DNA of 36,827 nt from a virus (lineage: Duplodnaviria; Heunggongvirae; Uroviricota; Caudoviricetes). Position 1 is the stretch's first letter; each line of letters starts with the position of its first letter. A program made the translations under genes and the position numbers. Positions 935-35,691 of the stretch are shown here, in pieces. The stretch lies in the IMG/VR virus record IMGVR_UViG_2663763339_000003. The stretch is one strand, 5' to 3'. The notes under the pieces were generated by a model. That model had not been told where the DNA came from. It worked only from the letters and a program-made list of their open reading frames with translations, and ran no database searches.

Positions 935-2620
935 GTGAATATAAACGTCGCCGAATTGTTAAATGGGAATTACATTCTGTTATTATTTGTGGTCCTCGCG
1001 CTTGGGCTATGTCTCGGAAAGTTACGACTTGGTTCGATCCAACTGGGTAATTCCATTGGCGTTTTAGTCGTATCGCTGTTATTAGGCCAACAACATTTCA
1101 GCATTAACACCGATGCGCTTAATCTTGGCTTTATGCTGTTTATTTTCTGCGTCGGGGTCGAAGCCGGACCGAACTTTTTTTCCATTTTTTTTCGCGATGG
1201 GAAAAATTACCTAATGTTAGCACTGGTGATGGTTGGCAGTGCGCTGGTGATCGCCTTAGGGTTAGGTAAGCTGTTTGGCTGGGATATTGGCCTGACGGCC
1301 GGTATGTTAGCAGGCTCTATGACGTCGACACCGGTTCTGGTCGGTGCTGGCGATACACTGCGTCATTCCGGCATGGAAAGCAGGCAGCTCTCACTGGCAC
1401 TGGATAATCTGAGCCTCGGGTATGCCTTAACCTATTTAATCGGTCTGGTGAGTTTGATTGTTGGTGCGCGTTACTTGCCGAAATTGCAGCATCAGGACTT
1501 ACAGACCAGCGCCCAGCAAATCGCCCGCGAACGTGGCCTGGACACTGATGCCAACCGTAAGGTTTATTTACCGGTGATCCGCGCCTATCGCGTCGGCCCG
1601 GAGCTGGTGGCCTGGACCGACGGCAAAAATCTGCGTGAACTGGGTATTTATCGACAAACCGGCTGCTACATTGAACGTATTCGACGTAACGGGATTCTGG
1701 CAAATCCAGACGGTGATGCCGTGCTACAAATGGGCGATGAAATAGCGTTGGTAGGCTATCCCGACGCCCATGCCCGACTCGATCCCAGCTTCCGTAACGG
1801 TAAAGAAGTTTTCGATCGTGACCTTCTCGACATGCGTATCGTCACTGAAGAAGTGGTCGTTAAAAACCATAACGCTGTAGGTAAACGTCTCGCACAACTG
1901 AAGTTGACCGATCACGGTTGCTTCCTTAACCGCGTCATTCGTAGCCAGATTGAGATGCCGATAGATGACAACGTCGTGCTTAACAAAGGTGACGTTTTAC
2001 AAGTCAGCGGTGATGCCCGTCGCGTAAAAACCATCGCCGATCGCATCGGCTTTATCTCGATTCACAGCCAGGTCACTGACCTGCTGGCATTTTGCGCCTT
2101 CTTTGTTATTGGGCTGATGATCGGGATGATCACCTTCCAGTTCAGCACATTCAGTTTCGGCATGGGGAACGCTGCCGGGTTGTTATTCGCCGGAATTATG
2201 CTGGGCTTTATGCGTGCTAACCACCCGACCTTCGGTTACATTCCGCAAGGTGCATTAAGCATGGTGAAAGAGTTCGGCTTGATGGTGTTTATGGCAGGCG
2301 TTGGTCTGAGCGCCGGTAGCGGTATTAATAACGGCCTGGGCGCGATTGGCGGTCAGATGTTGATTGCCGGATTAATTGTCAGTCTTGTGCCCGTGGTTAT
2401 CTGTTTCTTGTTCGGTGCTTATGTATTGCGAATGAACCGCGCACTGTTGTTCGGCGCAATGATGGGCGCACGCACCTGCGCGCCGGCAATGGAGATCATC
2501 AGTGATACAGCTCGCAGTAACATCCCTGCGCTGGGCTATGCGGGCACCTACGCAATCGCCAACGTCCTGCTGACGCTGGCAGGGACAATCATCGTCATGG
2601 TATGGCCAGGATTAGGATAA
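935..2620 (+). CDS. ybjL: putative AAE-family transport protein YbjL
   Basis: 561-aa ORF with duplicated multi-helix membrane domains flanking a central soluble region; recognised as YbjL. Confidence 0.85.
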
Positions 2621-4747: not shown

Positions 4748-7700
4748 GCGTCGTATCCCCCCTGATCGCTGTAGTTACTCCTGGCTTTTGCCTTCAGCCT
4801 GCGTTCACGTTCATCAAGCTGGCGGGCCACCTCCCGAGCAATATCCTGCGCACTTTGTCCTGGCTGCGTCTGAATGATGATCTGCGTCGGTGCCTCAATC
4901 CGCTGAACGGGCGGCACAGTGGCTGCACGACTCACCATCGCTTCGCCGCCTTTCGCGGGAAATGCCAAAGGATGCAACGGTGGAAGCTCTGCAGGCGCGG
5001 CAGTAACGCCCATCATTCCGGCAACAACGGCAGCCAGTGCAGCTGTATTTCTCCGGCTGGTCACATTTGCCGGGCCGTTAACAATTTCCGGCCCGTTTTC
5101 ACCGACGATGCCAAACTGCCCGCGCGGGATATAGCCGCCGCTGTCATACATCCCCGCAAAGCCATATCCCCATGACGGCAAACCACCCGATGGCATCATC
5201 ACTTTACCATCCGCATTCACCGTCGCAGGTTGCTGACGCGTCACGCTTTCCGGCAGTTTCGCCTTTGCAGCCTCTTTACTGACAATGCCGAGTTTCTCCA
5301 GCAACCAGGAAACGCCGGATTTCAGGGAGTCCAGCGGATGCATGACCATATTCAGCCCTTCTGCCAGTGCCTCCCCGAATCGTCGCCCCATTGCCGCTGC
5401 GCTCTGCAGTTCGGCAGAGGTTGACTTAACGGGCGTCAGCAGATCAGTAAACCAGCCCCACAGCGCCTGCACTTTGTCGCCAATCCACTGAAACACAGGC
5501 TTAAGTGGTTCGAATGCTTCACTGATGGGACCTGCCGCCGCTTTGAATCCTTCCACCACGCCACCGAGAAATGCAGTGATGGGTTGCCAGTATTTCCAGA
5601 CAACCAGTGCCACGCCCGCCAGTGCAGTAACCACAAGACCTATCGGACTGAGCAGAGCACCTAACAGGCCAGATACGGCATACAGAGCAACGCGCAGCAT
5701 CGCCAGCGGACCGGATGCCAGTACTCGCAGCACCGCGCCTGCGGCAGCCAGTCCACCGCGTAGTGCTGCCAGTGGATTCATAAACATCACAGCAACAGCA
5801 CGTAAACCGGATAATCCAGACCGCAACAGTGCAACCGGCACACCTGCTACAGTTTTCAGGACATTCCCCGTCAGTGATGCCGTGCGGCGCAAAGACGACA
5901 ACGGCGCAGTAAGTAAACCCGCTGCGTTGCCCGATGAAGCAAGCCCGCGTCGCAGCAGTGCCAGTGGAGCGCCAGCTAACCAGGACAACGCGCTGCTGGT
6001 TCGTGTTACTGCTGCCGTAACGGAAGGTAACGTTTTGATGCCCAGCACAGAGAATCCCAGACGGATGACTGCCAGCGGCCCCAGCACTGCAGCCAGCGCC
6101 ACAGCCAAGGTGCCGAGGCCTACGGTAACCGCAGCCACAATAGCAGCTACTTTCATCAGTGTGCCCGTCAGTTCCGGGTTAGCTTCCACCCAGCGACGCA
6201 ACGCCCCCGTGACGCTTTTCACCGTGTACAGAATATCCATCAGCGGCTGGCGCAGCGTTTCGCCCAGGCTGCTGAAGGTATTCTGCGCTCCGGTTTTAAC
6301 CAGCAACCACTGAGCAGAAAGTGAGTCCTTGTTGATGTCGGATTCTTTCTGCATGGAACCGAGCGCATCATTGCCCGCTGTCAGTTTTAGCTGGCGCTGC
6401 AGTTCCGGAAGGTTGTTTGCCAGTTTCGCCGCGTCATCACCAAACTCTTTACCAAACAACATGGTCATGGCAGACAGACGCTTGTCCTGCGGCAGTGCGT
6501 TCACCTTCTCCAGCACACGCTGGATAGTTCCCATCGCATCCTTCGTCATCTGCTTTTCAATCACTTCAGGATTGAGTTTCAGCAGATTCATCCCTTCAAA
6601 GAAACTCTTGCTTTGCATGGTGGCAATGGACAATTCACGCACCATCGCGTTTGCTGCACTGGCTGCAACCTCCGGCGCAGCGCCCAGTGTCAGAAAGGTG
6701 GAACCCAGTGCCGCCGCTTTACGATAATCCAGACGGTCAGCCACACCGCCCAGACGTTGCATCACATCAATGATGTCCGCCCCTTTCGACATGGCGTTAT
6801 CATCCAGATAGTTCAGCGCATCGCCGAGCTGTTCAATATTGCGGGTAGGTATTTTGTAGAGCTGGGCGATTTTCCCCAGACTTTCTGACAGTTCATCCGC
6901 TGGCAGCTCAAAGGCTGTTGCCGCCTTTGCTGCCGTACTGGCGAAGGCCAGCAGGTCACGTTTCTGGTCTTCCCAGCTGTCGTCAGGGTTTGCGACGTTC
7001 ATGCGCGCACCACCTTCAACCAGTGCAGCGAAATCCACCGCACCTTTTTCCATCGGCAACTGTTCGCTGGCAGCCTTGATGGCATCCTGCATTTCATAAA
7101 AACGTGCAGTGCGGTTGCCATTATCGTCACGCAGACCATTGACCTGCTTTGCCACACCTTTCATGGCATCTTCCATGCTGGTATAGCTTTTTACTGCCGC
7201 CATCACTGGCGCACCCATTGCCAGCCCTGCAGCCGTGGTAGTGGCTCCGGCTCCTGCAATACGATCACGCACCTCCAGCGAACGGGCATAACTGGCACGC
7301 GCCGCATTCATCCTGCGCTGAGCTTCCCCCAGTCGCTTCAGCCGCGCCTCTTGTTTCGAAAGTTCCTGGTTATAACGTGATGTTTCACGGGCTAAACGGG
7401 CAGTTGCTCCCGCATCATCTTTCGCAGAAATTCCCGCCCGGTACAGTTCTGCACGCACAAGCGCCGTTTGCTTCTGCAAATATTTTTGTTGTTCTTCCAG
7501 GCGTTGGACTGCCAGCGTTTGCCGACCTAAAGCCACAAGATGCCTTTGTGATGGTTGTTCCATCGCTTCCAGCTCAGAACTAAGCAAATTTGCCTTCTGT
7601 CTGGCATAGTTCAGCCTGTCGCCTAACTTTTTGTTATCGGCCTGCAGCTTGCGAAATTTTTCCAGGCTGTTACCCGCCTGATTGAGTTGCTTTAATGCGT

Positions 7701-10144: not shown

Positions 10145-10711
10145 TCAGGGAGATTCATTGCTCTTATTTGCCGGAAATTTTCTATAAATGGTAGAAACGC
10201 CTACATCAAAAATCAGTGCAATACGCTGTCTTGATTCTCCGGCCTCGAGTAAACGCCCAATCTGTGCCCACTGTTCGGTGGTCAACTTAGGACGGCGTCC
10301 ACCTACTCTGCCTTTGGCACGAGCTGCAGCCAGCCCTGCCCTGGTACGTTCAACTATCAGTTCGCGTTCCATTTCAGCAAGGGCACCCATGACATGAAAA
10401 AAGAAACGGCCCATTGGGGTACTGGTATCAATACTGTCAGTCAGGCTTCGGAAATTCACGCCTCGCTGACGCAACTCTTCTATCAGCGTAACAAGATGCC
10501 GCATACTGCGCCCCAACCTGTCCAGCTTCCAGACAACCAGCGTGTCTCCTGCCGATAGTGTCCTGAGCAGTTTTTTCAACCCTGGTCTGTCGGACTTAGT
10601 GCCACTGATTTTATCCTCAAAAATCCGCTCACATCCCGCGCAGTTCAGTGCATTACGTTGCAAATCAGTGTTCTGGTCATTTGTTGACACGCGTACATAG
10701 CCAATAAGCAT
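10145..10711 (-). CDS. serine DNA invertase (Hin/Gin/Pin/Cin family)
   Basis: N-terminal MLIGYVRVSTNDQ with catalytic Ser, resolvase-type core and C-terminal HTH; start taken at the internal ATG (ORF track extends to 10828). Confidence 0.9.
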   Translation of the reverse strand: MLIGYVRVSTNDQNTDLQRNALNCAGCERIFEDKISGTKSDRPGLKKLLRTLSAGDTLVVWKLDRLGRSMRHLVTLIEELRQRGVNFRSLTDSIDTSTPMGRFFFHVMGALAEMERELIVERTRAGLAAARAKGRVGGRRPKLTTEQWAQIGRLLEAGESRQRIALIFDVGVSTIYRKFPANKSNESP

Positions 10712-10765
10712 GATCACCCCCCTGAATAAAAACCGGAGATGATGCCAGTTAGCCGTTATCTCTGC

Positions 10766-10791
10766 ATTTTCATAAACGTTGGTTTGGGAGA
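10766..10791. repeat. inversion crossover site (hix/gix-like), left
   Basis: TTTTCATAAACGTTGGTTTGGGAGAA fits the 26-bp TTnTCnnAAACCnnGGTTTnnGAnAA pattern; central TT at 10778-10779. Confidence 0.65.
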
Positions 10792-11146
10792 AGCGGCAAA
10801 ACGGAATGTAGGTAACGGGCAAAACCAAATTCCGGATATGGCGGCGTTTGCCAGTTCACTTTCATCAACGGGTTTTCAAAAACTACCTTCGGGTCTGATT
10901 ATTCAGTGGGGTATTGTCAGTGGAGCATCAAACTATACGGTGACTTACCCGGTAACATTCCCAAATCGTTCACTTGCGCTGTTGGCTGTACCACATACAA
11001 CGTCGGTGGCGGGTATATCTGCAATGGGCATAGCGAACTGTTCTGATATCAGCAAATCACAGTTCTATATAATTGTTGGCGGTATATCTCAGGGAGAAAT
11101 TGTCAAATATGAAAGGTCCTGTTTTTGGGTAGCAATCGGTGTATAG
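10779..11146 (+). CDS. alternative tail-fibre C-terminal cassette (silent orientation, promoterless)
   Basis: reading frame continues from the crossover site; LGEAAKRNVGNGQNQIPDMAAF is paralogous to [22 protein letters not shown] in the expressed tail fibre. Confidence 0.7.
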
Positions 11147-11154
11147 GTATATCT

Positions 11155-11550
11155 ATGATTTATTTCTCAAAATCGACTAATGGTTTTTTCTTTGATGGTA
11201 TAAACAGCGACATGCCTGCTGACATTGTTGAGATAAGTACAGACTTATACAATGAATTAATTGCCGGACAGCAGGAAGGGGGTAAATTAATTACGTCAGA
11301 TGAAAATGGTTTACCGGTACTGAAATCCCCGGTGATTGATTATGTCGCACGTGCGGAAAATCAGCGAATGCAGTTACTTTCTCATGCCGATAATGTCACA
11401 GCTGACTGGCGAGTGGAATTAATGCTTGGTGATATTAGCAGTACAGATAAAGAAAAACTATCCGCCTGGATGTACTACAAAAAAGAAGTAAAAGCCGTCG
11501 ACACTTCGACGGCTCCTGAGATTAGCTGGCCTGAGTTACCGGAGGTGTAG
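11155..11550 (+). CDS. alternative tail-fibre assembly chaperone (silent orientation)
   Basis: MIYFSKSTNGFFFDG... N-terminus typical of Tfa/gpG-like chaperones; converges on and overlaps the expressed chaperone gene at its 3' end. Confidence 0.7.
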   Translation: MIYFSKSTNGFFFDGINSDMPADIVEISTDLYNELIAGQQEGGKLITSDENGLPVLKSPVIDYVARAENQRMQLLSHADNVTADWRVELMLGDISSTDKEKLSAWMYYKKEVKAVDTSTAPEISWPELPEV

Positions 11551-24641: not shown

Positions 24642-25514
24642 CTACCAATTCATGCTTTCTTTTAATTCAGTTCGCGCATTTTCAACAAGTTGTACTAACT
24701 CTTTAAGACTATCAGTTAACACTTGATGACTACCTTTATTTGTTCTATATGTTAACATATTTACATTTAATGTTTTTTCAATAACAGGAACCATATCTCT
24801 ATGAATACTTTTATCAGCCATAACCATATAATGTGGTTTAACAGCATTGTGCTTGAAAAAAGCATCTTCCAGAAGAAGCCTTATATCGGGGTCATTAGCC
24901 CCACAACCTATAAATAGAAATGTATGCGTTAAACCCAAGGCATTAAGAATCTCGTAAAAATCTCTGTACTGTGATCTTGCCTTTGCATAATCACTTCTTG
25001 AAAAAATCAAGTTTGACGTATTATCAATTGTGCCGTGAATTTTCAGGATAACACGACCACTATCCTTTATTGCACTTGCAATATCACTATCAAAATAATT
25101 TTTGACACTTACCGTGCCTTCTGTTTCTTTACTAACATATGTTTCATATATTTTATCAAAATTAGGCGTTACAACAATCCTGCAATCTAATTTAAAAAGA
25201 AACTCATGTATATCTGCTTTAGCATAATGTGGATTCAAGAATGCATTTTTTGCAATTTCATCGAACCTCCCTTTAGGAAGCTTTGCCTTAATTAATTCAC
25301 AAGCAGTCAAATAATCTTCGTTTTTAATCAATCGTTTAATTTGTAGCGATGACCCAGAACTGAGTTCTGGTAAACATCCTTCAAGAAATTGTTTCCAACT
25401 TGGAGGCCGTGAATTACCTTTACCAACACTGTTCATTGAGACGCCTGCCCCCAGAAATAAAATACATTTCCGTCTCGCTAAATCGGAGACTAAGCTTTTA
25501 TCCCAATTAATCAT
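24642..25514 (-). CDS. SIR2-like (SIR2_2-type) NAD-binding protein, putative NADase effector
   Basis: 290 aa; N-terminal LFLGAGVS glycine-rich Rossmann motif, VVTPNFD (cf. TTNYD) and KIHGT motifs; ATGA overlap with the upstream ATPase gene. Confidence 0.7.
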   Translation of the reverse strand: MINWDKSLVSDLARRKCILFLGAGVSMNSVGKGNSRPPSWKQFLEGCLPELSSGSSLQIKRLIKNEDYLTACELIKAKLPKGRFDEIAKNAFLNPHYAKADIHEFLFKLDCRIVVTPNFDKIYETYVSKETEGTVSVKNYFDSDIASAIKDSGRVILKIHGTIDNTSNLIFSRSDYAKARSQYRDFYEILNALGLTHTFLFIGCGANDPDIRLLLEDAFFKHNAVKPHYMVMADKSIHRDMVPVIEKTLNVNMLTYRTNKGSHQVLTDSLKELVQLVENARTELKESMNW

Positions 25515-26518
25515 GACTCACTCGCAGCAACATTATCAAGGATACGGGAACAAATACTTTCAAAAAGCTTCTTAGCATCGTTTACTTTTGAAAAGTGCGA
25601 TCCTACTACCCCATCTTTATTTTTAAGATTAAAAATTGGAGCATTTGCTAATTGAGACAATGGAATTAAGCTATTCATATTCTCAATTTGCCCTAAATCA
25701 AAATTCATATCTTGTTTTTTTGCGTAATTATTGATTATTTCTGCTTTCATTGCCTTAGGAATTTTAAGTGCAATTTTTTCATACGCATTAACTTTTACTT
25801 TCTCTCCCCTTACTGTTTTCCCTTTATATTGTTGCATCGCATACCCAAGAAACTTCAGTCTGCACTGTAAAGATGAGCCATCGATGATAAAATCTTCACC
25901 TTCATTTTTAGTATAGTTTTTCAGGCCATCAGATACACCTTCCATCCAGGCCTTTAGCGAAAGGTTAATATTATTAAGAGCTAAAAGACTAAACATATCA
26001 ACAGACATTGGAATAATGAAATAGTCACATGATATTATTATTGCTCTATTCAATGCACCTAATGAAGGACCTACATCATATAAAATAAAATCATAGTCTT
26101 TATACATGGAGGACAGATGTGAAAAAACAAATGTTGTTTGTATACCTCGAGGTTTCCCTGCCACAGCGGGGTCCCAATCAGATGCTAAAAAATCCTCACT
26201 CAACGCTAACTTGGGATCCCCAGGAATCAAGTCAAAACCAAACCTATCAGTTTTTATTGGAACTACACGAGTAGTTGCATATCCTTTTGCCCTCCGAACT
26301 GGGGTTAAGAAATTTTCAATTGTATTTCTCTTATCAGAACCATAAAGTTCATCAAGTTTTTTCTCTCCCAAACAATAAGATGTTGTGTTGCACTGAGGAT
26401 CGGCGTCAATAACCAACACTTTTTTGTGCATCTCAAGACTAAGATAAGCACCAACATTACACAACAATGTAGTTTTGCCAACGCCACCTTTATTATTGAA
26501 AAAAACTATACTGTTCAT
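25511..26518 (-). CDS. ParA/MinD-family P-loop ATPase with C-terminal extension
   Basis: 335 aa; deviant Walker A NNKGGVGKTT at residues 8-17 and an Asp-rich Walker B-like region (VLVIDADPQ). Confidence 0.8.
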   Translation of the reverse strand: MNSIVFFNNKGGVGKTTLLCNVGAYLSLEMHKKVLVIDADPQCNTTSYCLGEKKLDELYGSDKRNTIENFLTPVRRAKGYATTRVVPIKTDRFGFDLIPGDPKLALSEDFLASDWDPAVAGKPRGIQTTFVFSHLSSMYKDYDFILYDVGPSLGALNRAIIISCDYFIIPMSVDMFSLLALNNINLSLKAWMEGVSDGLKNYTKNEGEDFIIDGSSLQCRLKFLGYAMQQYKGKTVRGEKVKVNAYEKIALKIPKAMKAEIINNYAKKQDMNFDLGQIENMNSLIPLSQLANAPIFNLKNKDGVVGSHFSKVNDAKKLFESICSRILDNVAASES

Positions 26519-26587: not shown

Positions 26588-26664
26588 TCAGCTTTAACAT
26601 TAATTAACACCTCTTTTAAGATTAAAATTTTGTTAAGAAATGCACTCTAGCCCCATGGCGCGCG

Positions 26665-26683
26665 CTCGTATCCCCGCCACGCC
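26665..26683 (-). other. cos-like site (cohesive end region)
   Basis: minus-strand GGCGTGGCGGGGA... resembles the start of P2/186 cohesive ends as I recall them; GC-rich island in AT-rich surroundings. Confidence 0.4.
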
Positions 26684-26723
26684 TGCCCGCTTTATGTAGT
26701 GGTTTTCATGCAGGTGCATGATC

Positions 26724-26755
26724 TACGCAAAAGCCCGCCAGAACTGGCGGGCCTT
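26724..26755 (-). terminator. rho-independent terminator downstream of the lipoprotein gene
   Basis: minus-strand hairpin gcccgccag-ttc-tggcgggc followed by TTTTG. Confidence 0.55.
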
Positions 26756-26856: not shown

Positions 26857-27534
26857 CTAGAACGTGACAGCCTTGTCAAAGCCAGAAATAATTGTATAAG
26901 AAATAGACGAGTTATCAGCCTTGTTCACTTTGAACTTGGCACCTTTGTAAGCGATAACATCACTTCCCTTAGAATCTACAGAAAAATCTGTTGTAAATGC
27001 TGCACGAGCCATATCGTTTGCAAATTCACGATAGGTGAACTTCATTACACCGCCTGCATTTCCATTGTATTCGATAGTCTTAACCAATGAATTACTCACT
27101 CGACACAGCCCATCAGGAACACGTTTGATAGAAATTTCTGATGCAGTATAAGAAGTGCCATTTGGCGGTGATATCTCATTTTTTGCAGCATCGTAACTAA
27201 CATAATCAACATAGTTACCGATTTGCCCATAGAGATTTTTTAACGCAACAGCTTGAGGGTTATGATAATTGCGGTAAATTCCATTCCCCTCACTGCAATA
27301 TGTACCAGCAGCGATAGAAGACAATGCACCATTAGCCGCACCAAGTTCTAGTACGTCCGTTTTAAATCCAGTAGCAGATGTGATAATGGGATCGCCCATG
27401 TAGGCGGTAGCACTTTGCCCAATAGCTGGCTTCACCACTTCAATAGCAGTGATATTTCGGTTAGAAGCATGTGGCACGCAACCAGTTAGGATTACAGCAA
27501 GAGATATTGGTAACGCTACATTATTAATTTTCAT
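26857..27534 (-). CDS. lipoprotein of unknown function (cargo gene)
   Basis: start at MKINNVALPISLAVILTGC with lipobox LTGC (ORF track extends to 27588); AT-rich. Confidence 0.65.
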   Translation of the reverse strand: MKINNVALPISLAVILTGCVPHASNRNITAIEVVKPAIGQSATAYMGDPIITSATGFKTDVLELGAANGALSSIAAGTYCSEGNGIYRNYHNPQAVALKNLYGQIGNYVDYVSYDAAKNEISPPNGTSYTASEISIKRVPDGLCRVSNSLVKTIEYNGNAGGVMKFTYREFANDMARAAFTTDFSVDSKGSDVIAYKGAKFKVNKADNSSISYTIISGFDKAVTF

Positions 27535-27558: not shown

Positions 27559-27593
27559 ACAAAAAACAAGGCGATATCTGATTGACATCGCCT
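27559..27593 (-). terminator. rho-independent terminator downstream of the DinI-like gene
   Basis: minus-strand hairpin ggcgatgtcaatcagatatcgcc followed by TTGTTTTTTG. Confidence 0.5.
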
Positions 27594-27647
27594 CTCACTC
27601 ATATGTAACCCTTTTTGATTAGTAAAAACAAGCGTCTATTGACAAAA

Positions 27648-27881
27648 TCAATGCAGCCAGCTGTCGTCTTCCCACACCTTCTGCAAAATTTTCATCACTT
27701 GTTTTCTTTCTTCGTCCAGTTGCAGTCCGGTCAGTTCCACACCGTTAGAGCTACCTTTACGGATACGGATTACCGTTTTGGGATACAGGGGGCGCAGATT
27801 GCGGTAAAGCTCGGATTCAAGGGCGTCCAGGGTAGACTGGCTAATCTTCTGCTCTTTATCGATCATTATTTCAATGCGCAT
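27648..27881 (-). CDS. DinI-family protein
   Basis: MRIEIMIDKEQKISQSTLDALESEL...QKVWEDDSWLH resembles DinI; start taken at the internal Met (ORF track extends to 27953). Confidence 0.7.
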   Translation of the reverse strand: MRIEIMIDKEQKISQSTLDALESELYRNLRPLYPKTVIRIRKGSSNGVELTGLQLDEERKQVMKILQKVWEDDSWLH

Positions 27882-27891
27882 AAAAGTCACC

Positions 27892-28080
27892 TCAACTGAT
27901 GACATCCATTGAGCGGTTGTATTCGTGGGTTCTGATTTTTGCCATGAGTTCATCAGTCAATTCAGAAACCCACTGCAGAGCCAGCCCCTTCTCTTCATCA
28001 CTACACTCACTAGCCGCTACAAGCTTAAGAAAAAAATCAATGCGCTGGAGCTTCAAAGACTCCAAAAAATAGTCCTGCAT
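27892..28080 (-). CDS. small hypothetical protein, first gene of the LexA-box transcript (possible Tum-like antirepressor)
   Basis: GGAGG ribosome-binding site 5 nt upstream of ATG at 28080; LexA box just upstream. Confidence 0.45.
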   Translation of the reverse strand: MQDYFLESLKLQRIDFFLKLVAASECSDEEKGLALQWVSELTDELMAKIRTHEYNRSMDVIS

Positions 28081-28119: not shown

Positions 28120-28139
28120 CCACTGTTTATATTTACAGT
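28120..28139 (-). promoter_or_regulatory. LexA (SOS) box overlapping a candidate promoter
   Basis: CTGT-N8-ACAG: minus strand TACTGTAAATATAAACAGTG; preceded by TTTACA -35-like hexamer. Confidence 0.6.
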
Positions 28140-28232
28140 ATATAATAATCTTACTGATGTAAAACGTTTTTTTACGTTCATCGGCCTGATATGCCTGGTA
28201 TTATTAAGAGCACGAATTGTTAACCCGCGTAA

Positions 28233-33397: not shown

Positions 33398-33994
33398 ATG
33401 TCAACATCAAAGTACCCAAGTGAGATCAAAATAAATCCCAATAAAGGTGGTAAGGCTGCGATTGAGCGATTAGTCGAAGCTTATGGCTTTACGACACGAC
33501 AGGCTTTAGCTGATCACTTGGAAGTATCAAAAAGCACTCTGGCGAACAGGTATTTGCGGGATACGTTTCCTGCAGACTGGATAATCCAATGTGCTCTTGA
33601 AACAGGAACCTCACTGAAATGGTTAACCACCGGGCAAGGACTTAAGCAAAGCTCGCTGACAGTAGCCACAGAAGAGCTTCCCAAGTTTCGCCTTACCGCA
33701 GGCAAAATGATTGAAGATGGTTCATATGTATTCGATTCATCATTTCTTCCTGCAAATCTTTCATCACCAATTGTTATTCAGGATGGGCTTGTCACATACA
33801 TTTGTGATCAAAAATTTTCTGAAGTACTTGATGGACACTGGTTAATCAACATCGACGGAACCTATTCCATTCGAAAAATCACAAAGCTTCCAAAAGGTAT
33901 GATTAAAATTACAACTACAGAGAATAGCTTTGAATGTGCATTTTCTGATATTGAAGTGGTTGCTTGTATAAGAAGTACAATAGTTTCAAATTGA
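33398..33994 (+). CDS. cI: CI immunity repressor (186-type)
   Basis: 198-aa ORF; N-terminal HTH region resembles 186 CI (AYGF...LANRY...CALETG); divergent from apl. Confidence 0.8.
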   Translation: MSTSKYPSEIKINPNKGGKAAIERLVEAYGFTTRQALADHLEVSKSTLANRYLRDTFPADWIIQCALETGTSLKWLTTGQGLKQSSLTVATEELPKFRLTAGKMIEDGSYVFDSSFLPANLSSPIVIQDGLVTYICDQKFSEVLDGHWLINIDGTYSIRKITKLPKGMIKITTTENSFECAFSDIEVVACIRSTIVSN

Positions 33995-34014: not shown

Positions 34015-35691
34015 ATGAATTCATTTTCCATCGTTATATTCTTATTAGCATTTCTCGCCCCTGTTCTAGCTATAATATTATTTAAGCAAAGTAAAGAACA
34101 CAAAGCCGCCATAGATAACCTGACGGCTAACAACATAGCCCTTTCCAGCCAACTGAGTGAAAATCAAGAAAAGTTAGCACAGACTGCTCGAGATCTATCA
34201 GAGCTTGAAGGGCGAGCAGCACCATTATGGCAATACGAAGAATTGCACAGCGCAGTGATGGAGGCAGAGAATAAGATAAAAAATGCAGACTCAATAGCTA
34301 GGCAAAAAATAGAAGAAGCCCAAATAAAGGCAGCTAAGACAGTAAACGAAGCAAGTTATCAAGCTCAGATAACAATAAGCAACGCTAATAGCGAAGCTAT
34401 AGCAATCACCAAAGACGCTCGCGATGCACGCCTGAAAGCCAAAGAACGTCTTGATAATGCCAACAGTAAAGCAAATGAGCTGATCTCAAATGCTAATGAC
34501 AACGCAGTAAAAATTATTTCCGATGCAGAAGAAAGAGCAAAAGAGATTGCTGGTTCAGCATATGAAGCTAAAGAGTTTGCAGAAAAATATGAAGCAGTTG
34601 CCAAATCAATGAAAAATAAAATTGAAGGTTATGGCGATGAATGGATCATCCCTAACCGTAGTGTACTTGATGAATTGGCAGAAAATTATGAGTTTACAGA
34701 TGCAGGCAAGGAATTACAAAAAGCCAGGGAGTTAACAAAATCATTAATAAAAACTAATAAAGCAGCTTCGTGTGATTATGTTGAGCAAAACAGGCGTAAT
34801 ACTGCTATCAACTTTGTTTTGGATGCCTTCAATGGAAGAGTTGACAGTATTTTATCAAAAGTCAAACACAACAATTTTGGAAAACTTTCCCAAGAAATAA
34901 AAGATGCATTTCAACTTGTAAATTATAATGGCTCTGCTTTTAGATCCGCAAAAATAAGTGACATCTATCTTCAGGCACGACTCAACGAGCTAAAATGGGG
35001 AGTTGCAGTTAATGAAATTATGCTCGAAGAAAAAGAGGAGCAAAGAAGGATTAAAGAACAACTTCGTGAAGAGGAAAGAGCTCGTAGAGAGTATGAAAAA
35101 GCGATAAAAGAAGCCGAAAAAGAAGAGAAAGCTATTCAGCAAGCTATAAATAAAGCAACGAAAGAGCTTATGCTTGCAAATGAAGAACAACGCTTAGCTT
35201 TAGAGCAAAAAATAGCTGAACTACAGTTAAAATATGAAGAAGCTGAAGCTAAAAACCAACGAGCTATTTCTATGGCTCAACAAACTAGATCAGGCCATGT
35301 TTATATAATTAGCAATATTGGCTCATTTGGCGAAGATGTATATAAAATTGGAATGACACGCCGCCTTGAACCACTTGATCGTGTTCGTGAACTTGGGGAT
35401 GCTAGTGTTCCTTTTTCGTTCGATGTTCATGCGATGATTTATAGTGATGATGCACCGTCATTAGAAAATCATCTGCATAAAGTCTTCAACGAAAAGCAGG
35501 TCAATAAAATTAACTCACGAAAAGAGTTTTTTAACGTAAATATTAAAGAAATTAAATCGGTTATTGAAGATATGAACATCAATGCCCACTGGACAATGTT
35601 TGCAGAGGCGAAAGAATATAGAGAGTCACTAGCTATTGAGCAGGAACGCAAAGCAGCCACTTCCGCCAACGATGAACTACATGTTGCTTAG
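34015..35691 (+). CDS. membrane-anchored coiled-coil protein with C-terminal T5orf172 (GIY-YIG-like) domain, cargo gene
   Basis: 558 aa; N-terminal TM helix (FSIVIFLLAFLAPVLAIILF), Ala/Glu/Lys-rich coiled coil, C-terminal GHVYIISN...YKIGMTRRLEPLDRVREL motif block; 20 nt after the cI stop. Confidence 0.55.
   Translation: MNSFSIVIFLLAFLAPVLAIILFKQSKEHKAAIDNLTANNIALSSQLSENQEKLAQTARDLSELEGRAAPLWQYEELHSAVMEAENKIKNADSIARQKIEEAQIKAAKTVNEASYQAQITISNANSEAIAITKDARDARLKAKERLDNANSKANELISNANDNAVKIISDAEERAKEIAGSAYEAKEFAEKYEAVAKSMKNKIEGYGDEWIIPNRSVLDELAENYEFTDAGKELQKARELTKSLIKTNKAASCDYVEQNRRNTAINFVLDAFNGRVDSILSKVKHNNFGKLSQEIKDAFQLVNYNGSAFRSAKISDIYLQARLNELKWGVAVNEIMLEEKEEQRRIKEQLREEERARREYEKAIKEAEKEEKAIQQAINKATKELMLANEEQRLALEQKIAELQLKYEEAEAKNQRAISMAQQTRSGHVYIISNIGSFGEDVYKIGMTRRLEPLDRVRELGDASVPFSFDVHAMIYSDDAPSLENHLHKVFNEKQVNKINSRKEFFNVNIKEIKSVIEDMNINAHWTMFAEAKEYRESLAIEQERKAATSANDELHVA

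What the first reader, a model, noticed from the sequence alone, without database searches (positions are those of the whole stretch)
26857..27534. AT-rich lipoprotein cargo gene in the cos-to-A variable locus (P2 old/tin position)
Seen: a 225-aa ORF with a lipoprotein signal peptide (lipobox LTGC), its own terminator downstream (26724-26755) and a terminator separating it from the upstream DinI-like gene. Established: the A-to-cos region is the old/tin variable locus of P2 and a known defence hotspot, and prophage lipoproteins such as T5 Llp and phi80 Cor block receptors to exclude superinfecting phages. Inference: a candidate receptor-masking or envelope-modifying exclusion factor. I could not recognise the mature domain.
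Basis: partly seen in the sequence, partly recalled or inferred. Interest (0 to 1): 0.5.

Follow-up and report, generated by a model that had tools for sequence, protein, structure and literature searches.

The report
Prophage lipoprotein in SOS operon
The gene is real and encodes an outer-membrane-type lipoprotein of unknown function; it is the last gene of the prophage's DNA-damage-inducible (LexA/Tum) operon, in the slot where phage 186 carries an unrelated infection-blocking gene, so it is a reasonable but untested exclusion-factor candidate.

Summary
Observation confirmed. A 225-aa ORF (26857-27534, minus strand) has a lipoprotein signal peptide (lipobox LTGC, Cys19), is AT-rich (40.7% vs 54.5% GC) and is flanked by two strong hairpin terminators.

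Interpretation partly supported.
- The gene is not an autonomous cargo unit. It is the third gene of a 186-type SOS operon: LexA box/promoter, TumA-like ORF, DinI/TumB, terminator, lipoprotein, terminator, cos.
- In phage 186 the same slot holds orf97, annotated "expression from plasmid blocks 186 infection". Orf97 is not homologous.
- The 99%-identical Fels-2 gene STM2726 lies in an operon that was induced by a DNA-damaging mutagen.
- The hypervariable cargo (here ParA-like ATPase + SIR2) lies on the other side of cos. Homology among 50 or more related prophages stops just past cos.

Distant relatives sit directly upstream of the tape-measure gene of siphoviruses, the slot of the HK97 gp15 exclusion gene. 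Best guess, at about 40%: an SOS-timed envelope exclusion factor.

The parts
28123..28163 (-). p95-like SOS promoter: -35 TTTACA (28163-28158), 17-nt spacer, -10 TACTGT (28140-28135), overlapped by a perfect LexA box CTGTAAATATAAACAG (28138-28123)
   Evidence: It is the only CTGT-N8-ACAG match in the 36.8-kb window. The sequence was read. Phage 186 has the same -10/LexA overlap at p95. The box is kept at the same distance in nearly all related viral loci.
27892..28080 (-). TumA-like small ORF (62 aa) with a strong AGGAGG ribosome-binding site
   Evidence: phrog_698, E = 7e-38. It is in the same position as PsP3 tumA, which is annotated 'similar to 5' end 186 tum; UV induction of prophage'.
27648..27881 (-). 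TumB / DinI-like gene (77 aa), the DinI-like half of a split 186-type Tum antirepressor
   Evidence: Pfam DinI E = 9e-23 and phrog_189 E = 1e-30. It is 76.6% identical to PsP3 TumB and 42.7% identical to the C-terminus of 186 Tum.
27560..27594 (-). Intrinsic terminator between tumB and the lipoprotein gene (t95a equivalent): 11-bp stem followed by U6
   Evidence: Found by the terminator scan. Fold energy -17.5 kcal/mol, z = -3.69. The 186 record calls the equivalent element a partial terminator of the p95 transcript.
26857..27534 (-). Lipoprotein gene, 225 aa. Signal peptide is residues 1-18, lipobox LTGC, lipidated Cys19 (27480-27478), Val at +2. The mature part is all-beta, with a variable middle (65-145) and a conserved C-terminal domain (150-219). 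Cys80 and Cys144 are invariant in the close clade.
   Evidence: phrog_1353, E = 3e-105 over the full length. No Pfam, PADLOC or NCBIfam family.
26726..26755 (-). Intrinsic terminator ending the operon (t95b equivalent)
   Evidence: 11-bp GC-rich stem followed by UUUU; -26.3 kcal/mol, z = -4.45. It aligns with the t95b region of phage 186.
26665..26683 (-). Probable cos cohesive-end sequence GGCGTGGCGGGGATACGAG. It marks the border between the conserved right genome end (with the lipoprotein) and the hypervariable cos-to-Q slot.
   Evidence: The window aligns with the right end of the linear 186 record up to ...AAAGCGGGCA at 26684. Similarity to the related viral loci stops about 199 nt after the stop codon, at about 26658. 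Assignment of the 19-mer as cos rests on my own knowledge of the P2/186 cos sequences.

Best explanation
The gene encodes a lipoprotein that is sorted to the outer membrane. It is the distal gene of the prophage's LexA-controlled Tum operon.

Shown: the layout is LexA box/promoter, TumA-like ORF, DinI/TumB, hairpin terminator, lipoprotein gene, terminator, cos. This is the layout of the phage 186 SOS operon (p95-tum-t95a-orf97-t95b).

Inferred:
- In a quiet lysogen LexA keeps the operon low.
- After DNA damage the operon is derepressed.
- A fraction of transcripts read through the internal terminator, and the lipoprotein is made as the prophage switches to lytic growth.
- The protein acts alone on the cell envelope as an exclusion factor. 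It would block a step of infection by other phages, more likely at or after adsorption or during DNA entry than by masking the phage's own receptor. It would do this by binding a conserved envelope component through its conserved C-terminal domain.

This would protect the induced cell, and to some degree the lysogen through basal expression, from superinfection.
For: Lipoprotein and outer-membrane sorting:
- Lipobox and Cys19 are conserved in 99% of 146 relatives, and none of 133 has Asp at +2.
- Paired conserved cysteines suggest a periplasmic disulfide.

SOS operon:
- The only perfect LexA box in the window overlaps a TACTGT -10 element 43 nt upstream of the TumA-like ATG.
- The layout is identical to the annotated 186 SOS operon.
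- No promoter better than chance lies between the terminator and the ATG.
- In Salmonella, operon STM2726-STM2727-STM2728 had all three genes induced by the mutagen MX (14.8-fold down to 2.6-fold, all p at most 0.01). STM2726 is 99.1% identical to this protein (PMC2225428).
- Wherever flanks are available, related viral loci keep the TumA-DinI-lipoprotein order, and nearly all keep the LexA box.
- A 54%-identical homologue in a non-P2 context also follows a perfect LexA box and a small ORF.

Exclusion role (by analogy only):
- The 186 gene in the same slot, orf97, is annotated 'expression from plasmid blocks 186 infection'.
- Other occupants of the slot include SieB and a KAP NTPase.
- The distant clade lies directly upstream of the tape-measure gene in 25 of 32 diverse viral loci. 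That is the slot of the HK97 gp15 exclusion moron (PMC3594210).
- Family members are single-gene cargo, with no conserved partner, on varied prophages and integrative elements.
Against: - No experiment bears on the function of this family.
- There is no homology to 186 Orf97 (BLASTP E = 4.5; hhalign probability 0.5%) or to Llp, Cor, TraT, Bor or any PADLOC model.
- Positional analogy is weak evidence. These slots also hold genes with other roles.
- MX may have induced the whole Fels-2 prophage, so the microarray does not prove LexA-dependent read-through.
- The internal terminator looks strong (11 bp + U6), and read-through was not measured.
- Some relatives are chromosomal and outside any recognisable mobile element.
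Confidence: 0.4

Rival explanations
1. Llp/Cor-type receptor masking. The lipoprotein binds and inactivates the outer-membrane receptor used by this phage itself. This prevents superinfection and stops progeny being lost on cell debris.
For: It is an outer-membrane-type lipoprotein made at induction. That is the timing at which T5 Llp acts (T5 timing is my own knowledge). 186 orf97 in the same slot blocks 186 itself.
Against: - No sequence or fold similarity to Llp or Cor.
- The gene is about 13 kb from tail-fibre gene H and does not co-vary with it. Phage Cartapus has a 97.7% identical full-length fibre but no lipoprotein.
- Fels-2, RE2010 and 4LV2017 carry a 99-100% identical lipoprotein, yet their fibres match only over the N-terminal 70-76% or at 78% identity.
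- The identical protein occurs in phages of Salmonella, E. coli and Klebsiella.
- P2 and 186 adsorb to the LPS core, not to a protein receptor (own knowledge).
Confidence: 0.1
2. Host-fitness or virulence conversion factor. The lipoprotein would be an envelope protein that helps the lysogen (serum or complement resistance, adhesion, stress tolerance), as lambda Bor or plasmid TraT do, with no role in phage-phage conflict.
For: It is single-gene, AT-rich cargo that is widespread on prophages and islands of many Proteobacteria, including pathogens. Some copies are chromosomal. The exact sequence occurs on at least 1000 contigs.
Against: - No similarity to Bor or TraT.
- Placement behind a LexA-repressed promoter and a terminator predicts low expression in healthy lysogens, which fits a constitutive host benefit poorly.
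- It recurs in slots known for exclusion genes.
Confidence: 0.2
3. A helper for the phage's own induced lytic cycle. The SOS-induced lipoprotein would remodel the envelope to aid lysis, release or vesiculation. The operon layout resembles colicin operons: SOS promoter, main gene, partial terminator, lysis lipoprotein.
For: SOS control and the position after a leaky terminator resemble the layout of colicin operons (the colicin layout is my own knowledge).
Against: - Colicin lysis proteins are mature peptides of about 30 aa. This is a 206-aa folded beta protein.
- The prophage has a full P2-type late gene set.
- Most 186/PsP3-type phages lack this gene and carry unrelated genes in the slot, so it is not needed for the lytic cycle.
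- Relatives on non-phage islands have no lytic cycle to assist.
Confidence: 0.12
4. An autonomous moron expressed constitutively in the lysogen from its own promoter. On this view the nearness to the SOS operon is incidental.
For: A strong hairpin terminator separates it from tumB. Its GC content differs from its neighbours. A weak promoter-like TTGTCA-16-ACTAAT lies upstream of the hairpin (read).
Against: - That candidate lacks the conserved A at position 2 of the -10 element and lies upstream of the terminator.
- The promoter scan finds nothing above chance (12 sites found vs 13.4 expected).
- The 186 record documents read-through of the equivalent terminator.
- All three STM2726-2728 genes were induced together.
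- A second, independent LexA-box association exists in L157.
Confidence: 0.15

Closest known systems
orf97 of the coliphage 186 SOS operon (p95-tum-t95a-orf97-t95b; Brumby et al. 1996, as annotated in NC_001317)
   Same: - Same genomic slot: last gene before the right cos end, after tum and an internal terminator, and followed by a terminator.
- Same LexA box overlapping a TACTGT -10 element.
- Both products are envelope-targeted.
- The longest possible reading of the window gene is 243 codons, the same as orf97.
   Different: - No detectable homology (BLASTP E = 4.5; hhalign probability 0.5%).
- Orf97 has an N-terminal transmembrane segment and no lipobox. This protein is a lipoprotein with an all-beta mature domain.
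- Here Tum is split into TumA and TumB, as in PsP3.
T5 Llp and phi80/N15 Cor (receptor-blocking exclusion lipoproteins)
   Same: A phage-encoded lipoprotein with a classical lipobox, predicted to go to the outer membrane and to act alone.
   Different: - No sequence or structural similarity.
- About three times larger than Llp (Llp size is my own knowledge).
- Not linked to, and not co-varying with, the receptor-binding protein gene.
HK97 gp15 moron (inner-membrane superinfection-exclusion protein between the tail chaperone and tape-measure genes)
   Same: Distant members of this lipoprotein family occupy the same slot, directly upstream of the tape-measure gene, in 25 of 32 diverse siphovirus contigs and in annotated Acinetobacter and Klebsiella prophages (PMC3594210).
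   Different: - gp15 is a small inner-membrane protein of the YebO family, not a lipoprotein. No Pfam family matches here.
- The window gene itself is in a P2-like myovirus and is not next to a tape-measure gene.
P2 old and tin (exclusion genes at the right end of P2)
   Same: Same broad region between gene A and cos in a P2-family phage, a recognised defence hotspot.
   Different: Old and Tin are cytoplasmic proteins acting on DNA or on replication proteins (own knowledge). There is no similarity. This gene belongs to the tum operon, which P2 lacks.

Membership tests
Bacterial lipoproteins (Lgt/LspA/Lnt pathway, Lol-sorted to the outer membrane) | N-terminal signal peptide ending in a lipobox [LVI][ASTVI][GAS]C | tested here: met
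   MKINNVALPISLAVILTGC. Cys19 is kept in 99% of 146 relatives, and 133 of 146 have a canonical lipobox.
Bacterial lipoproteins (Lgt/LspA/Lnt pathway, Lol-sorted to the outer membrane) | No Asp at position +2 (the inner-membrane retention signal in Enterobacteriaceae) | tested here: met
   Val20 in this protein. None of the 133 relatives has Asp at +2.
Bacterial lipoproteins (Lgt/LspA/Lnt pathway, Lol-sorted to the outer membrane) | Actual lipidation and outer-membrane localisation | not testable with these tools
   Needs globomycin or palmitate labelling and membrane fractionation.
phrog_1353 (phage protein family of unknown function) | Full-length match to the family profile | tested here: met
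   E = 3.1e-105, residues 1-223 against profile positions 1-230 of 230.
186-type SOS (tum) operon | LexA box overlapping the -10 element of the operon promoter | tested here: met
   CTGTAAATATAAACAG at 28138-28123 overlaps TACTGT. It is the only perfect box in the window and matches the 186 p95 annotation.
186-type SOS (tum) operon | Tum antirepressor with a DinI-like C-terminal part as the first gene(s) | tested here: met
   phrog_698 ORF followed by a DinI-domain ORF. This is the split TumA/TumB form of PsP3.
186-type SOS (tum) operon | Internal partial terminator, then a distal gene, then a terminator, then cos | tested here: met
   Both hairpins are present and the region aligns with the 186 right end. 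Whether the internal terminator is partial was not measured. Co-induction of STM2726-2728 supports read-through.
186-type SOS (tum) operon | Distal gene homologous to 186 orf97 | tested here: not met
   BLASTP E = 4.5; hhalign probability 0.5%.
Llp / Cor receptor-blocking lipoproteins | Sequence or fold homology to Llp or Cor | tested here: not met
Llp / Cor receptor-blocking lipoproteins | Genetic linkage and co-variation with the phage's receptor-binding protein | tested here: not met
   The same tail fibre occurs without the lipoprotein (Cartapus). The same lipoprotein occurs with different fibre tips (Fels-2, RE2010, 4LV2017).
Llp / Cor receptor-blocking lipoproteins | Binds and inactivates an outer-membrane receptor and blocks adsorption | not testable with these tools
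   Needs adsorption assays and pull-downs.
Moron (independent transcription unit added to a phage genome; Juhala/Hendrix definition, PMC3594210) | GC content different from the neighbouring genes | tested here: met
   40.7% GC against 47.9% for tumB, 52.5% for gene A and 54.5% for the structural genes.
Moron (independent transcription unit added to a phage genome; Juhala/Hendrix definition, PMC3594210) | Own promoter and own terminator | tested here: inconclusive
   A terminator is present. No convincing promoter was found: only 33 nt lie between the upstream terminator and the ATG, and the scan is at chance level.
Known anti-phage defence systems (PADLOC-DB v2) | Match to any defence-protein model | tested here: not met
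   0 families at E up to 0.01.

The most novel reading that the evidence does not exclude
This protein is the enterobacterial P2-type representative of a very large, unrecognised family of prophage-borne outer-membrane lipoproteins with a fold not yet seen in solved structures. On this reading the family is a new class of superinfection-exclusion proteins.

- The conserved C-terminal domain would dock on a conserved periplasmic or outer-membrane component. Alternatively it would engage the incoming tail tip or the tape-measure/peptidoglycan-hydrolase apparatus.
- The variable middle region would set specificity.
- In P2-like phages, expression would be timed by LexA to the moment of induction.

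This would explain why the family recurs in two classic exclusion slots: tum-to-cos in 186-type phages and chaperone-to-tape-measure in siphoviruses.
Probability: 0.25. Interest if true: 0.6.

Novelty: new variant of a known kind. Interest (0 to 1): 0.4.

Why it matters
If the function is confirmed, it would give a role to a family found in thousands of prophages of Klebsiella, Salmonella, E. coli, Acinetobacter and many other Proteobacteria. The exact sequence alone occurs on at least 1000 contigs. It would add an envelope-level defence that is switched on by DNA damage, a regulatory logic so far documented in this slot only for 186 orf97.

For clinical Klebsiella and Salmonella lineages carrying this prophage it could affect susceptibility to therapeutic phages.

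The result also refines the map of the P2 hotspot. The A-to-Q region is really two independent slots separated by cos, and only one of them lies in the LexA-controlled operon.

If the function is not confirmed, the gene remains an ordinary hypothetical prophage lipoprotein.

Tried and rejected
Tools and searches that gave nothing or were unavailable:
- Pfam, NCBIfam and PADLOC scans of the protein found no family. The one NCBIfam hit (polysaccharide lyase, E = 0.02, 13.9 bits against a cut-off of 366) was rejected as noise.
- A Pfam scan of 62 diverse relatives found no shared family.
- A PDB sequence-profile search matched only a signal peptide (TrwH).
- The genome-contig scan failed with the diverse alignment and returned only one locus with the close alignment.
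- The look-up of P0016 found no record.
- One literature search was spoiled because 'tum' matched 'tumour'. Searches for the accessions found no paper.
- The original Brumby et al. 1996 paper was not in the library, so the orf97 phenotype rests on the GenBank note.

Ideas considered and rejected:
- That the protein is a divergent Orf97.
- That it is the 'lipoprotein' defence hit of Vassallo et al. 2022. Those systems are in PADLOC and do not match.
- That the 243-aa start is used. It lies inside the terminator stem, and homologues and PGAP use the MK... start.
- That it is a toxin-immunity lipoprotein. No conserved partner gene appears in any context.

Full report
**1.

The minus strand carries an ORF from 27534 to 26857 (225 aa) that begins MKINNVALPISLAVILTGC.
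- A longer reading from 27588 (243 aa) begins inside the stem of the upstream terminator. Homologues and the RefSeq annotation of E. coli ATCC 8739 use the 225-aa start.
- The lipobox LTGC places the lipidated cysteine at residue 19.
- The gene is 40.7% GC, against 54.5% for the structural genes and 52.5% for gene A.
The downstream one is an 11-bp GC-rich stem at 26755-26730 followed by UUUU (-26.3 kcal/mol, z = -4.45). The upstream one is 27594-27568 followed by U6 (-17.5 kcal/mol, z = -3.69). No shuffle folded as well as either.
- The upstream neighbour is DinI-like (Pfam E = 9e-23), and gene A lies beyond it (Phage_GPA E = 4e-128).

**2. The protein.**

No Pfam, NCBIfam or PADLOC family matches it. 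It matches phrog_1353, a family of unknown function, over its full length (E = 3e-105).

*Occurrence of close copies.*
- It is 100% identical in about two dozen Klebsiella P2-like prophage records.
- It is 99.1% identical in Fels-2 (STM2726) and 98.7% identical in Salmonella phage RE2010.
- It is present in 50 of 5426 complete E. coli genomes.
- The exact sequence occurs on at least 1000 contigs.

*The wider family.*
- A profile search of 1.84 billion cluster representatives found 2434 relatives at E up to 0.001 and 1256 at E up to 1e-10. Nearly all are 210-245 aa.
- Where named, they come from Gamma-, Beta- and Deltaproteobacteria and are called 'hypothetical protein' or 'lipoprotein'.
- None of 62 diverse members has a shared Pfam domain.
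- Of 146 aligned members, 133 have a canonical lipobox, most of the rest a near-canonical one, and none has Asp at +2. In Enterobacteriaceae this predicts sorting to the outer membrane (the +2 rule is established knowledge).
- The C-terminal 70 residues are much more conserved than the middle of the protein. The mean frequency of the commonest residue is 0.65 against 0.30.
- Invariant or nearly invariant residues include Y156, G158, Y168, R169, E170, R177, D187, Y196, K197, N208 and Y213.
- Each clade keeps a pair of cysteines, which fits a periplasmic disulfide.

*Structure.*
- An AlphaFold model built on 146 sequences is confident (pLDDT 90.5, pTM 0.76) and all-beta.
- The fold therefore has no solved relative that could suggest a function. 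It is not related to Llp, Cor, TraT or Bor.

**3. The genomic setting changes the picture.**

The annotated record of coliphage 186 has this layout at the same place: p95 (SOS-dependent promoter with a LexA site over the -10), tum, t95a ('partial termination of p95 transcript'), orf97 ('expression from plasmid blocks 186 infection'), t95b, then the right cos end.

The window has the same layout.
- A -35 TTTACA and a -10 TACTGT are overlapped by CTGTAAATATAAACAG (28138-28123). This is the only perfect LexA box in the 36.8 kb.
- A 62-aa ORF follows (phrog_698, the TumA position), then the DinI-like TumB. This is the split tum of PsP3.
- Then come the hairpin, the lipoprotein gene, the second hairpin, and a sequence that aligns to the very end of the linear 186 record, followed by GGCGTGGCGGGGATACGAG at 26683-26665.
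- Only 33 nt separate the first terminator from the ATG, and the promoter scan finds nothing above chance.

The gene is therefore best read as the distal gene of the LexA-controlled operon, expressed by read-through, and not as a free-standing unit.

Independent support comes from a microarray study of Salmonella carrying Fels-2. Operon STM2726-STM2727-STM2728 had all three genes induced by the DNA-damaging mutagen MX (14.8-fold for STM2727, at least 2.6-fold for the weakest, all p at most 0.01) (PMC2225428). The caveat is that MX may also induce the whole prophage.

A 54%-identical homologue in an unrelated context (L157) also lies behind a perfect LexA box and a 109-aa ORF.

**4. Which part is variable.**

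I fetched 58 viral contigs carrying relatives of the protein.
- Wherever the flank is available, every copy with at least 79% identity follows the same A, TumA and TumB genes. The LexA box sits at a fixed distance in nearly all of them.
- Similarity to the window stops about 199 nt after the stop codon, at about 26658, just past cos.
- The distance from there to the portal gene Q ranges from 381 to 3578 bp in many size classes.
- None of these contigs carries the window's ParA-like + SIR2 pair.
- Examples of what follows cos in phages with the same lipoprotein are a 565-aa protein in Fels-2, a retron in Klebsiella phage 4LV2017 and three hypothetical genes in E. coli ATCC 8739.

So the hypervariable slot is cos-to-Q, and the lipoprotein lies on the other side of cos.

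The tum-to-cos slot is variable too, but on a longer timescale. It holds:
- Orf97 in 186;
- gp37/gp38 in PsP3;
- gp46 and a membrane-anchored gp47 in Cartapus;
- an opposite-strand gene in SEN8;
- three small genes in Midge;
- a KAP NTPase in E. coli SFE8;
- SieB in some E. coli loci.

The lipoprotein is tightly linked to one TumB allele. About 28 of the 30 phage records whose TumB is 95-99% identical also carry it.

Rousset et al. list this protein (WP_000700647) only as 'hypothetical' in their table of P2 hotspot loci.

**5. Relation to known exclusion genes.**

186 Orf97 is the closest known thing by position and regulation, but it is not homologous (BLASTP E = 4.5; hhalign probability 0.5%). 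It has an N-terminal membrane helix rather than a lipobox.

Against an Llp/Cor-type mechanism, in which the lipoprotein masks the phage's own receptor and its gene travels with the receptor-binding protein gene:
- The window's tail-fibre protein H is 97.7% identical over its full length to that of phage Cartapus, which lacks the lipoprotein.
- Fels-2 and RE2010, with a 99% identical lipoprotein, match only the N-terminal 70-72% of H.
- 4LV2017, with a 100% identical lipoprotein, matches H at 78% identity.
- The same protein therefore serves phages of three host genera with different fibre tips. Its target, if any, must be a conserved component.

**6. Contexts of distant relatives.**

- In Acinetobacter Vieuvirus phages, Moraxella phage Mcat28 and a Klebsiella aerogenes prophage, the gene sits among accessory genes in the tail module. 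In Ab1656-2 and the K. aerogenes prophage it lies just upstream of the annotated tape-measure gene.
- In 25 of 32 diverse viral contigs of this clade, an 850-1750-aa ORF starts within about 2 kb downstream on the same strand. Of five such ORFs scanned against Pfam, two carry a tape-measure domain plus an SLT domain and a third carries an SLT domain alone.
- This is the slot of HK97 gene 15, the original 'moron'. It encodes a superinfection-exclusion protein that blocks DNA entry (PMC3594210).
- Other relatives lie next to an integrase or recombinase at the edge of integrative elements, in a prophage next to umuDC-like genes, or alone in the chromosome.
- No partner gene is conserved, so the protein probably acts alone.

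**7. Most likely mechanism, and how sure.**

*Shown:* it is a lipoprotein with outer-membrane sorting signals; it is the third gene of a LexA-box operon of the 186 type; it lies on the conserved side of cos; it belongs to a huge uncharacterised family; it has no known fold relative.

*Inferred:* it is expressed by read-through upon SOS induction, and it acts on the envelope to exclude other phages, more probably at a step after adsorption or via a conserved component than by masking its own receptor. I put this at about 0.4.

*Rivals:*
- a host-fitness factor of the Bor/TraT kind (0.2);
- a helper of the phage's own release (0.12);
- classical self-receptor masking (0.1);
- on regulation, an autonomous constitutive unit (0.15).

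**8. Novelty and interest.**

The operon architecture is known from 186. The hotspot is known. The gene is in the databases as hypothetical. What is new is:
- the recognition that this widespread lipoprotein family occupies the orf97 slot under LexA control;
- that its relatives occupy the gp15 slot;
- that it has no known fold relative.

That makes it a new variant of a known kind (an envelope-acting prophage accessory gene) and a good, cheap experimental target. It is not a surprise to a specialist. Interest 0.4.

Noticed in passing
window 24642-26518 (minus strand): Two overlapping genes (ATGA overlap), very AT-rich (34-35% GC), fill the hypervariable cos-to-Q slot. One encodes a ParA/MinD-like ATPase (335 aa; Pfam AAA_31 E = 2e-29). 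The other encodes a SIR2_2 protein (290 aa; E = 2e-23), with PADLOC hits only to the SIR2 parts of ThsA, LmuA and Dsr. No PADLOC model matches the ATPase beyond a weak hit to PDC-M28B (E = 8e-5). The pair occurs in 12 of 5426 complete E. coli genomes, always next to the portal gene in the one checked. In Rousset's table a similar ParA-like ATPase is paired with a RelA_SpoT protein instead. This is a candidate two-gene defence system with a swappable effector. Such pairs may be among the loci counted by Rousset et al. as 'putative plasmid partitioning systems'.
   Followed up: partly
window 26658-26683: Probable cos site (GGCGTGGCGGGGATACGAG, minus strand, 26683-26665). Similarity among the related viral contigs that reach this point breaks off a few bases past it. 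The P2 'A-to-Q hotspot' is thus two independent slots separated by cos, and they recombine independently.
   Followed up: yes
window 34015-35691 (plus strand): A 558-aa protein between the 186-type CI repressor (33398-33994) and the integrase (35775-end). It matches the known defence system PD-Lambda-1 (PADLOC E = 7e-120; Pfam DUF4041 + T5orf172/MUG113). It is a second defence cargo locus in the same prophage.
   Followed up: partly
window 10145-11550: A resolvase/invertase gene (10145-10828, minus strand) lies next to opposite-strand copies of a tail-fibre C-terminal segment (Gp53-like_C, 10739-11146) and a tail-fibre assembly gene (11125-11550). They sit beside the expressed H and G genes. 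This looks like an invertible host-range switch of the Mu Gin / P1 Cin type. The inverted repeats were not searched for.
   Followed up: no
L157: 5526-6654: A 54%-identical homologue of the lipoprotein in a non-P2 viral contig. It is preceded by a perfect LexA box (CTGTATATTCTTACAG, 5526) and a 109-aa ORF with no Pfam match (5567-5896). This is a second, independent link between this family and SOS control.
   Followed up: partly
L026-L105 (distant clade of the family): In 25 of 32 diverse viral contigs the homologue lies directly upstream of the tape-measure gene, whose product often carries an SLT peptidoglycan-hydrolase domain. This is the slot of the HK97 gp15 exclusion moron.
   Followed up: partly
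protein cluster of window:26857-27534: The 90%-identity cluster that holds this protein in the large protein collection has a branched-chain amino acid transaminase as its representative and many such members. This looks like a clustering artefact, and it could hide the protein in searches that show only representatives.
   Followed up: no
window 935-2620 (plus strand): An Asp-Al_Ex/TrkA_C permease gene, presumably a host gene. It would mark the end of the prophage between 2620 and about 3165. The window ends inside the integrase gene at the other end.
   Followed up: no
window 26857-27534 and L106-L163: The lipoprotein is 100% identical at the protein level across prophages whose gene A (87-98%) and portal (84-95%) proteins have diverged. 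This suggests recent horizontal exchange of the tum-lipoprotein module between P2-like backbones of Klebsiella, Salmonella and E. coli.
   Followed up: partly
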